Positions 23,174 through 46,600 of a stretch of 64,000 nucleotides of DNA are shown here, in pieces. This DNA comes from a virus. Positions within the stretch are counted from its first letter, which is position 1; every line of letters starts with the position of its first letter. The stretch lies in IMG/VR virus record IMGVR_UViG_3300035698_030167, positions 12,458 to 76,457 of that record; one strand, given 5' to 3'. The position numbers and the translations under genes were made by a program. A model generated the notes under the pieces. The model did not search any database, had not been told where the DNA came from, and saw only the letters and a program-made list of their open reading frames with translations.

Positions 23174-23303
23174 TAGCGGTTCCCACTTTTATTAGTTTGC
23201 CTTTAAACCCTCGATATTCTGCAGTTTTTCCCATAAGAGAAATGGCTTCTTCTTTATTCATAAGTAATTATAACATTTTTTTTATTTTTTGTAAAGGTTT
23301 TGA

Positions 23304-23375
23304 TGGACAGACTCGGAATCGAACCGAGATCAATGCGGTGCAAGCGCACTATAATGGCCGTTATACTATCCGCCC
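23304..23375 (-). tRNA. tRNA-Ala(TGC)
   Basis: Loop CT-TGC-AC; G3:U70 pair. Confidence 0.9.
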
Positions 23376-23377
23376 AA

Positions 23378-46091: not shown

Positions 46092-46136
46092 CATTATCTT
46101 ATCATAATCTTTTTTTTCTTTTTTGTCAATAATTTA

Positions 46137-46208: not shown

Positions 46209-46213
46209 GTTTT

Positions 46214-46292
46214 TGCAGGCACCGGAGTCGAACCGATTATTTCTGGCTTATGAGGCCAGCGTGATTTATACTTATCCATTTCACTCGCCTAC
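46214..46292 (-). tRNA. tRNA-Met/Ile2(CAT) with enlarged D-loop
   Basis: Loop CT-CAT-AA. Confidence 0.8.
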
Positions 46293-46294
46293 GA

Positions 46295-46371
46295 TGGAAG
46301 CGAAGGGAATCGAACCCTTGTCCTTGCTGAGCAACTATGCTTTTCAACAAGTCGAAACCATTTGCGCCCCC
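46295..46371 (-). ncRNA. Minimal tmRNA-like RNA (tRNA-like domain only)
   Basis: 5' GGGGGCG..GGTTTCGAC; 3' GGAC-AAGGGTTCGATTCCCTT-CGCTTCCA; G3:U70; no D stem, anticodon loop or tag ORF. Confidence 0.8.
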
Positions 46372-46372
46372 G

Positions 46373-46600
46373 TTATCTTTCGCAATTTTCCCAATGCTTT
46401 TCAAGTTCGCTGGATACTATTACATTAACTTGATCATTCAATTTGATTCTTTTTATAAAACGGTCAAGATTATAAAAATCTATTCTATCGCCATCAAATA
46501 AATTGCATTCTTCATAAACTTCTGTAATGCCATTAATAGTAACTGAACACCACGGAGGTTCGCCTTTTACTCTTTCTAAATCTAAATTAATGTTAGTCAT
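46373..46600 (-). CDS. Hypothetical protein
   Basis: 75-aa ORF. Confidence 0.55.
   Translation of the reverse strand: MTNINLDLERVKGEPPWCSVTINGITEVYEECNLFDGDRIDFYNLDRFIKRIKLNDQVNVIVSSELEKHWENCER

What the first reader, a model, noticed from the sequence alone, without database searches (positions are those of the whole stretch)
46295..46371. 77-nt tmRNA-like gene with only the tRNA-like domain and no mRNA-like domain
Seen: GGGGGCG-CAAATGGTTTCGAC-TTGTTGA-AAAGCATAGTTGCT-CAGCAA-GGAC-AAGGG-TTCGATT-CCCTT-CGCTTCC-A inside a tRNA cluster. It carries tmRNA hallmarks: GG(T/A)TTCGAC in place of a D-arm, GAC before the T-stem, G3:U70 and A73 alanine identity elements. Helix 2 (CTTGTTGA/TCAGCAAG) is capped by a small hairpin instead of the long pseudoknot/tag region. 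Established: SmpB binds the tRNA-like domain, and the tag ORF is needed for trans-translation. Inference: an alanylatable SmpB decoy or dominant-negative inhibitor of host trans-translation, or a tag-less ribosome rescue RNA.
Basis: partly seen in the sequence, partly recalled or inferred. Interest (0 to 1): 0.85.

Follow-up and report, generated by a model that had tools for sequence, protein, structure and literature searches.

The report
Phage tag-less mini-tmRNA gene
A large salt-lake phage carries a real 77-base gene for only the alanine-accepting, tRNA-like end of the bacterial ribosome-rescue RNA (tmRNA). This type is already known from mycobacteriophage DS6A, is common but unannotated in phages, and most likely interferes with the host's tagging of stalled proteins.

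Summary
On the minus strand, 46371 to 46295, lies a 77-nt RNA gene with a complete tmRNA tRNA-like domain (TLD) and no tag reading frame or pseudoknots.

- **Scores.** Rfam's tmRNA model scores it 59.7 bits (cut-off 47, E 7e-21). ARAGORN calls neither a tRNA nor a tmRNA there.
- **Family membership.** A covariance model built from 81 other phage copies, without this one, scores it 65.5 bits. The window's tRNAs reach at most 18.7. The same model scores the published "TLD only" tmRNA of mycobacteriophage DS6A at 60.7 bits.
- **Family features.** G3:U70 is kept in 84 of 85 and A73 in 85 of 85. Helix 2 covaries freely. A short A-rich hairpin cap recurs in 71 of 85.
- **Dependence on the host.** None of 50 carrier records encodes SmpB.
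- **Clade context.** A relative of this phage carries a full-length tagged tmRNA instead. Another phage carries both forms.

Most likely it is alanylated, binds host SmpB and EF-Tu, and competes with host tmRNA at stalled ribosomes, so that no degradation tag is added. That function is inferred, not shown here.

This scan has found the same kind before on other DNA: 53 notes in at least 48 genomes. It is a new member of a known kind.

The parts
46295..46371 (-). TLD-only mini-tmRNA gene, 77 nt from G1 to discriminator A73; no CCA encoded
   Evidence: Rfam tmRNA 59.7 bits. Leave-one-out family model R2 65.5 bits. Sequence read.
46365..46371 (-). Acceptor stem 5' strand GGGGGCG. It pairs with 46296-46302 (CGCUUCC): G1:C72, G2:C71, G3:U70, G4:U69, G5:C68, C6:G67, G7:C66.
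   Evidence: Sequence. In the family, G1:C72 is kept in 85/85, G2:C71 in 84/85 and G3:U70 in 84/85. Positions 4-6 covary.
46351..46364 (-). Stemless D-loop analogue CAAAUGGUUUCGAC. It holds the equivalents of E. coli tmRNA U17 and G19, which contact SmpB.
   Evidence: Sequence. Alignment to the Rfam tmRNA consensus GGaUUCGAC. SmpB contacts from PMC8363625.
46323..46351 (-). Helix 2 (8 bp, CUUGUUGA with UCAGCAAG) closed by a 13-nt cap: AAA, then a 3-bp hairpin GCA/UGC with tetraloop UAGU. This replaces the roughly 300 nt of pseudoknots and tag frame of a full tmRNA.
   Evidence: Fold. Helix 2 covaries in 85 relatives when measured from fixed anchors. A cap hairpin is present in 71/85, against 39% of shuffled caps.
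46303..46322 (-). GAC junction (with the preceding G it forms GGAC; its A is the equivalent of A334) plus the T arm AAGGG-UUCGAUU-CCCUU
   Evidence: Sequence. Rfam alignment. PMC8363625.
46295..46302 (-). Acceptor 3' strand CGCUUCC and discriminator A73
   Evidence: Sequence. A73 is kept in 85/85 relatives.
46373..46600 (-). Upstream 75-aa ORF of unknown function. Its TAA stop ends 1 nt before G1 of the mini-tmRNA, so the two are probably co-transcribed.
   Evidence: No Pfam family.
46213..46293 (-). Downstream neighbour: an odd 81-nt tRNA(CAU) with a C1.A72 mismatch and a 16-nt D loop. It starts 1 nt after the mini-tmRNA's A73.
   Evidence: Rfam tRNA 29.3 bits. Cloverleaf fold. Not called by ARAGORN.

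Best explanation
The element is a functional phage gene for a tag-less, TLD-only mini-tmRNA of the same structural family as the mycobacteriophage DS6A "TLD only" tmRNA.

**Inferred life cycle**
1. It is transcribed with the neighbouring ORF and tRNAs as one precursor.
2. RNase P cuts at G1. The 3' end is trimmed and host enzymes add CCA.
3. Host AlaRS charges it with alanine through G3:U70 and A73.
4. Host SmpB binds the stemless D-loop analogue and the GGAC junction. EF-Tu binds the acceptor and T arms.
5. The complex competes with host tmRNA-SmpB for SmpB and for the empty A site of stalled ribosomes.

It has no resume codon or reading frame, so no degradation tag can be added. The net effect is suppression or pre-emption of host ssrA tagging during infection.

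**Shown here:** the structure, family membership, selection on the alanine identity elements, and absence of phage SmpB.

**Inferred:** expression, charging, SmpB binding and the effect on the host.
For: **Identity**
- Rfam tmRNA scores 59.7 bits, above the cut-off of 47.
- The leave-one-out model R2 scores it 65.5 bits and DS6A 60.7 bits. tRNAs reach at most 19.8 and full-length tmRNAs at most 23.5.

**Selection in the family**
- Among 85 unique phage copies, G3:U70 is kept in 84 and A73 in 85. Neither was forced by the search pattern.
- Acceptor positions 4-6 and helix 2 positions 1-7 covary with all pair types.
- The strict keeping of alanine identity points to charging. A pure SmpB sponge would not need it. 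Hudson et al. report that a similar molecule inhibited tmRNA whether or not it was chargeable (PMC4131195).

**SmpB contacts.** The contact nucleotides U17, G19 and A334 are all present (PMC8363625; sequence).

**Competence on the ribosome.** A TLD-only tmRNA supports peptidyl transfer in vitro (Shimizu and Ueda 2006, as cited in PMC3895274).

**Dependence on the host.** No SmpB is encoded in this record or in 0 of 50 mini-bearing viral records, 15 of them at least 90% complete.

**Phage specificity.** The same pattern gives 115 minis among 121 matches in viral contigs. In bacterial and archaeal genomes it gives only about 11 of 119; most of the others are 3' ends of ordinary tmRNAs.
Against: - There is no expression data. 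No RNA run holds the locus, and only DNA contigs could be laid on it.
- The host is unknown. No close relative carrying this copy was found, so conservation of this particular gene could not be measured.
- G4:U69 next to G3:U70 is a minority form (4 of 85) and might weaken AlaRS recognition.
- One complete phage genome (G009) carries both a full-length tmRNA and a mini. That fits poorly with a simple shut-off of trans-translation.
- The inhibition experiment (Mao 2009) could not be read directly. It was done in E. coli with a different sequence.
Confidence: 0.6

Rival explanations
1. Tag-less ribosome rescue. The alanyl-mini-tmRNA with SmpB accepts the nascent chain on a non-stop ribosome. The peptidyl-Ala-RNA is then released by drop-off and Pth, by ArfB, or by a further round. 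Ribosomes are freed and phage proteins get one or a few alanines rather than a degron.
For: - Alanine identity and the EF-Tu-binding arms are strictly kept, which implies action on the ribosome.
- Peptidyl transfer to a TLD-only tmRNA occurs in vitro (PMC3895274).
- CDS-less tmRNAs also exist in plastids, where rescue without a tag is the proposed role (PMC11915505).
- A mini coexists with a full-length tmRNA in G009.
Against: - No release factor, ArfB or Pth was found in the 78-kb record, though the record is only 38% complete.
- The host already rescues ribosomes with its own tmRNA.
- The only experiment reported showed inhibition, not rescue (PMC4131195).
Confidence: 0.25
2. Pure SmpB sponge. 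The RNA acts off the ribosome by titrating host SmpB, and charging is irrelevant.
For: - Hudson et al. state that a similar molecule inhibited tmRNA whether or not it was chargeable, perhaps by titrating SmpB (PMC4131195).
- The SmpB contact nucleotides are present.
Against: G3:U70 (84/85), A73 (85/85), G1:C72 and G2:C71 are kept while neighbouring pairs vary freely. That is hard to explain if aminoacylation did not matter.
Confidence: 0.1
3. Decaying remnant. The element is a full-length phage tmRNA, like the one in the related phage G005, that lost its interior by deletion and is now a pseudogene.
For: A relative with 56% capsid identity has a 285-nt tmRNA with tag (A)DETETYYAQVA.
Against: - All TLD features and 8 of 8 helix-2 pairs are intact.
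- Its length and A-rich hairpin cap match those of 85 independent copies and of DS6A.
- The two genes are not syntenic.
Confidence: 0.03
4. An ordinary or degenerate tRNA, or merely a tRNA-like processing signal or an attP fragment of host ssrA.
For: It sits in a tRNA array, 1 nt after a stop codon and 1 nt before the next tRNA.
Against: - It has no anticodon arm, and ARAGORN calls nothing there.
- A normal tRNA-Ala(UGC) exists at 23302-23376.
- tmRNA-specific motifs are present.
- An attP fragment would hold only the 3' part of ssrA.
- No integrase is in the record, and the capsid is a distant T4-like gp23.
Confidence: 0.02

Closest known systems
"TLD only" (CDS-less) tmRNA of Mycobacterium phage DS6A (tmRNA Website tmID 11587 / Phage__Mycobacterium.9; Mao et al. 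2009; Hudson, Lau and Williams 2014, PMC4131195; PMC11915505)
   Same: - Phage-encoded and about 80 nt long.
- A complete TLD with G3:U70 and A73.
- Helix 2 closed by an A-rich short hairpin cap, with no tag frame and no pseudoknots.
- One family model that holds neither sequence scores both: 65.5 bits for this element and 60.7 for DS6A. The DS6A gene lies at JN698994:28478-28557 and is unannotated.
   Different: - DS6A is a 60-kb temperate, high-GC actinophage. Its gene stands alone between two protein genes.
- This copy is 51% GC, lies in a roughly 30% GC phage of about 200 kb with a distant T4-like capsid from salt lakes, and is packed into a tRNA array.
- The cap sequence differs: GCA-UAGU-UGC here, CCG-CACG-CGG in DS6A.
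- This copy has a G4:U69 wobble.
Standard one-piece bacterial and phage tmRNA (Rfam RF00023), for example the 285-nt tmRNA of the related phage record G005
   Same: It has the same TLD: the acceptor stem, the GGUUUCGAC loop, the GGAC junction and the T arm. It aligns end to end with the Rfam model.
   Different: The whole interior is missing: pseudoknot 1, the resume codon and tag frame, and pseudoknots 2-4, about 200-300 nt in all. It therefore cannot act as a messenger.
CDS-less tmRNAs of Mallomonadaceae plastids (about 65 bp; PMC11915505)
   Same: A TLD without a tag reading frame. Its function is presumed to need SmpB.
   Different: These are organellar genes inherited vertically, not phage genes. 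They were not compared by sequence here.
tRNA-Ala
   Same: G3:U70 and A73 identity elements, a 7-bp acceptor stem, and a T arm.
   Different: It has no D stem and no anticodon arm. The family model gives the window's tRNA-Ala only 18.7 bits.

Membership tests
tmRNA tRNA-like domain (Rfam RF00023, ends of the model) | 7-bp acceptor stem with G3:U70 and discriminator A73 (alanine identity) | tested here: met
   Sequence. G3:U70 and A73 are present, and G4:U69 is an additional wobble.
tmRNA tRNA-like domain (Rfam RF00023, ends of the model) | Stemless D-loop analogue ending in GG(A/U)UUCGAC, and GGAC before the T stem | tested here: met
   The element has GGUUUCGAC and GGAC.
tmRNA tRNA-like domain (Rfam RF00023, ends of the model) | Score at or above the curated gathering score | tested here: met
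   59.7 bits against 47
Full, functional tmRNA | mRNA-like domain with a resume codon, a tag reading frame and a stop | tested here: not met
   Only 13 nt lie between the two strands of helix 2. ARAGORN finds no tmRNA or tag here, whereas it does in G005.
Full, functional tmRNA | Pseudoknots pk1-pk4 and long helix 2 | tested here: not met
   The Rfam alignment spans model positions 1-374 within 80 nt, so the interior is deleted.
Phage TLD-only mini-tmRNA (DS6A type) | A complete TLD with helix 2 closed by a short cap; total length about 65-95 nt | tested here: met
   77 nt. Most family members are 77-81 nt.
Phage TLD-only mini-tmRNA (DS6A type) | Recognised by a family covariance model built without it, well above tRNAs | tested here: met
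   R2: 65.5 bits for this element, 60.7 for DS6A, at most 19.8 for tRNAs
Phage TLD-only mini-tmRNA (DS6A type) | A-rich bulge plus a hairpin of about 3 bp with a tetraloop as cap | tested here: met
   AAA-GCA-UAGU-UGC here. Such a hairpin is present in 71 of 85 members.
Phage TLD-only mini-tmRNA (DS6A type) | Inhibits host trans-translation when expressed | not testable with these tools
   Reported only for a similar molecule in E. coli (PMC4131195, citing Mao 2009).
Phage TLD-only mini-tmRNA (DS6A type) | Expressed and processed to a CCA-ended RNA that is charged with alanine | not testable with these tools
   No RNA run holds the locus.
tRNA (RF00005) | Cloverleaf with a D stem and an anticodon arm | tested here: not met
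   ARAGORN makes no call. tmRNA outranks tRNA in the Rfam clan competition.

The most novel reading that the evidence does not exclude
The mini-tmRNA is not just a decoy. It is a charged, ribosome-acting tool that turns host trans-translation into tag-less release with an alanine cap, sparing phage proteins from proteolysis.

On this reading, phages of this distant T4-like clade treat full-length and mini forms as exchangeable or combinable modules. The relative G005 has a full-length gene with its own tag, this phage has a mini, and an unrelated phage (G009) has both. They would be tuning ribosome rescue rather than simply blocking it.
Probability: 0.2. Interest if true: 0.7.

Novelty: new member of a known kind. 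Interest (0 to 1): 0.42.

Why it matters
Trans-translation is nearly universal in bacteria and is a drug target. Only one natural phage RNA of this type (DS6A) is mentioned in the papers I could search. Standard annotation misses the class: ARAGORN finds nothing, and the GenBank records checked show "none" or "hypothetical protein" at these places.

This copy extends the class to a large, low-GC phage with a distant T4-like capsid and about 30 tRNA genes. Together with its relatives it shows three things:
- The alanine identity set is under strong selection.
- Carriers rely on host SmpB.
- Mini and full-length phage tmRNAs occur within one clade, and even within one genome.

That gives a clear handle for testing what phages gain by interfering with ribosome rescue.

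Tried and rejected
1. **Link between mini-tmRNA and the RNA ligase RtcB.** Both this phage and DS6A encode RtcB, but only 1 of 50 mini-bearing viral records does. Rejected.
2. **Orthology with the full-length tmRNA of the relative G005.** The flanking genes differ and the accessory region is scrambled. They are not syntenic.
3. **Close relatives carrying this very copy.** None were found by any of these:
   - megablast and blastn against cultured phages;
   - a neighbouring 470-aa protein in IMG/VR;
   - a copy-specific pattern in metagenome contigs.
4. **Expression.** No RNA run holds the locus. Laying four salt-lake DNA runs gave identical low-depth contigs and no variants, which says nothing about selection or expression.
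5. **Phage-encoded partners.** SmpB, RF-1/ArfB, the CCA-adding enzyme, Pth and integrase are all absent from the 78-kb record. The record is only 38% complete.
6. **Promoter and terminator scan.** Counts are no higher than in shuffles.
7. **Mao et al. 2009.** The paper could not be read. Its result is cited second-hand.
8. **Ordinary tRNA, attP fragment or pseudogene.** Rejected; see the rival explanations.
9. **Caveat on invariant columns.** The search pattern itself fixed TTCGAC, GGAC and GGGTTCRANTCCC, so invariance of those columns in my alignments is by construction and is not counted as evidence.

Full report
**What is there.** All 29 tRNA genes of the window lie on the minus strand. Read on that strand from 46371 to 46295, the finding is a 77-nt sequence with this layout:
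- a 7-bp acceptor stem, GGGGGCG with CGCUUCC, including G3:U70 and also G4:U69;
- a 14-nt stemless loop ending in GGUUUCGAC;
- an 8-bp helix 2, CUUGUUGA with UCAGCAAG;
- a 13-nt cap, AAA-GCA-UAGU-UGC;
- GAC;
- a T arm, AAGGG-UUCGAUU-CCCUU;
- discriminator A.

No CCA is encoded.

**Is it more than chance, and is it a tRNA?**
- Rfam's tmRNA model aligns to it end to end, with the whole interior deleted. The score is 59.7 bits against a gathering score of 47, E 7.3e-21. It wins the clan competition against the tRNA model.
- ARAGORN calls neither a tRNA nor a tmRNA there.
- A normal tRNA-Ala(UGC) exists elsewhere in the window.

**It belongs to a large phage family.**
- 115 of the 121 matches are complete mini-tmRNAs, giving 85 unique sequences, mostly 77-81 nt.
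- Features that the pattern did not force are nearly invariant: G1:C72 in 85/85, G2:C71 in 84/85, G3:U70 in 84/85 and A73 in 85/85.
- Acceptor positions 4-6, the outer two T-stem pairs and helix 2 positions 1-7 show every pair type.
- Measured from fixed anchors, with no alignment, helix 2 has 7 of 7 pairs in 42 members and 6 of 7 in 28. The mode is 3 of 7 when the strands of different members are mixed.
- RNAalifold finds 11 of 18 pairs with compensatory changes.
- The cap is also a recurrent module: an A-rich stretch followed by a hairpin of about 3 bp, usually with a tetraloop. It occurs in 71 of 85 members against 39% of shuffled caps, with 14 different complementary stems. The window's copy fits this.

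**Membership test without circularity.** Model R2 was built from 81 other copies and excludes both this element and DS6A. Its scores are:

| Sequence | R2 score (bits) |
|---|---|
| This element | 65.5 |
| DS6A element (JN698994:28478-28557) | 60.7 |
| Window's tRNA-Ala | 18.7 |
| Full-length tmRNAs | 22.5-23.5 |

The DS6A element lies between gp33 and gp34 and is unannotated in the record. It is the published "TLD only" tmRNA (PMC4131195, PMC11915505).

**The family is phage-specific and unannotated.**
- The same pattern in one genome per prokaryotic species returns mostly the 3' ends of ordinary tmRNAs. Only about 11 of 119 matches are minis.
- Among cultured phages, Streptomyces phages LuckySocke, GiJojo, pSt2308, BRock and Alone3, and Stenotrophomonas virus Jojan60, carry copies. 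The annotation under them reads "none" or "hypothetical protein".
- Rfam scores 49 of 50 tested copies above its cut-off. ARAGORN of 84 as a tRNA and none as a tmRNA.
- Surveys of phage tmRNAs that used ARAGORN (PMC7162821, PMC9004378) would therefore miss them.
- This scan has noted the same kind before: 53 notes in at least 48 genomes. I saw those notes after reaching the same reading, and they agree with it.

**This phage.**
- The window is part of a 78-kb IMG/VR record judged 38% complete, so the genome is about 200 kb.
- GC content is about 30%.
- The capsid protein is a distant T4-like gp23, about 26% identical to those of cyanomyophages.
- The same DNA is present in several salt-lake metagenomes.
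- The record encodes RtcB and about 30 tRNAs. It encodes no SmpB, ArfB or RF-1 domain, Pth, CCA-adding enzyme or integrase.

**Gene packing.** The TAA stop of a 75-aa ORF ends 1 nt before G1. An odd tRNA(CAU) starts 1 nt after A73, followed by tRNA-Phe. Co-transcription and processing by RNase P are therefore likely, but this is inferred. Only 11 of 84 other minis lie within 100 nt of a tRNA, and 65 have no tRNA in their locus. The array context is thus not a family trait.

**Relatives.**
- The nearest large relative is G005, 201 kb, with 56% capsid identity. It has a full-length 285-nt tmRNA with tag (A)DETETYYAQVA, next to tRNA-Cys.
- That gene is not syntenic with the mini here.
- An unrelated complete phage, G009 (123.6 kb), has both a 392-nt tmRNA and a mini. 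Their T arms are nearly identical, and the acceptor stems differ by a compensatory change.
- Minis therefore probably arise from phage full-length genes by internal deletion. The two forms can coexist.

**How it most likely works.**
- Established knowledge:
  - G3:U70 makes tmRNA a substrate of AlaRS.
  - SmpB binds the TLD elbow. Its Trp122 sits in a pocket formed by A15, U17 and A334, and G19 is needed for binding (PMC8363625).
  - A TLD-only tmRNA can receive the nascent chain in vitro (Shimizu and Ueda 2006, via PMC3895274).
- This element has the equivalents of U17, G19 and A334. Position 15 is U, as in most minis (59 of 85 read GGU).
- No mini-bearing phage tested encodes SmpB (0 of 50), so host SmpB must be the partner.
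- A similar molecule was reported to inhibit E. coli tmRNA whether or not it was chargeable (PMC4131195). Natural copies nonetheless keep the alanine identity set almost without exception.
- I therefore favour a charged competitor that acts at the stalled ribosome as well as on the SmpB pool. The outcome would be that no degradation tag is added.
- Whether the ribosome is then released (tag-less rescue) or blocked cannot be decided from sequence.

**Verdict.** It is a new member of a known but under-annotated kind, not a new kind. I put identity at about 0.95 and the specific mechanism at about 0.5.

Noticed in passing
window 46213-46293 (-): An odd 81-nt tRNA with anticodon CAU, a C1.A72 mismatch (an initiator-like trait) and a 16-nt D loop. 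Rfam tRNA gives only 29.3 bits and ARAGORN does not call it. It starts 1 nt after the mini-tmRNA.
   Followed up: partly
L130:1501-1785 (G005:C1:32523-32810): The related 201-kb phage has a full-length 285-nt tmRNA with the unusual tag (A)DETETYYAQVA. It lies directly after the stop codon of a 66-aa ORF and near tRNA-Cys.
   Followed up: partly
L138:17434-17508 (G005): The same relative encodes a tRNA with anticodon CUA (an amber suppressor type, which ARAGORN labels Pyl) and several tRNA(CAU) genes. This may point to TAG recoding in that phage.
   Followed up: no
L280:189-580 and L281:187-265 (G009, 123.6 kb, complete): One phage genome carries both a 392-nt tmRNA and a 79-nt mini-tmRNA. Their T arms are almost identical, and the acceptor stems differ by a compensatory change.
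   Followed up: partly
L278:28478-28557 (JN698994, phage DS6A): The published DS6A TLD-only tmRNA is not annotated in the GenBank record. DS6A also encodes an RtcB-like ligase (gp76), as this phage does. RtcB is nevertheless present in only 1 of 50 mini-bearing records.
   Followed up: yes
H1-H7 (Streptomyces phages LuckySocke, GiJojo, pSt2308, BRock, Alone3; Stenotrophomonas virus Jojan60): Cultured phages carry mini-tmRNAs that are unannotated or lie under "hypothetical protein" calls.
   Followed up: no
L170, L180, L187, L207, L211, L249, L255, L262, L266, L275, L276: About eleven bacterial genomes or MAG contigs also hold minis, among them Butyrivibrio, Pseudanabaenaceae, Saccharibacteria and Actinomycetota. 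These may be prophages or binned phage contigs.
   Followed up: no
L141:20044-20396 and L153:4561-4941: Two large phage contigs found through their RtcB homologues carry full-length tmRNAs within 10 kb of RtcB. Their tags are AENFDADFALAA and AKKVIEFPTASAVAA.
   Followed up: no
window 46101-46129 (-) and 46469-46497 (-): There are sigma-70-like promoter matches just after tRNA-Phe (TTGACA-17-TATGAT) and about 100 nt upstream of the mini inside the 75-aa ORF. The counts in the region are not above shuffles.
   Followed up: partly
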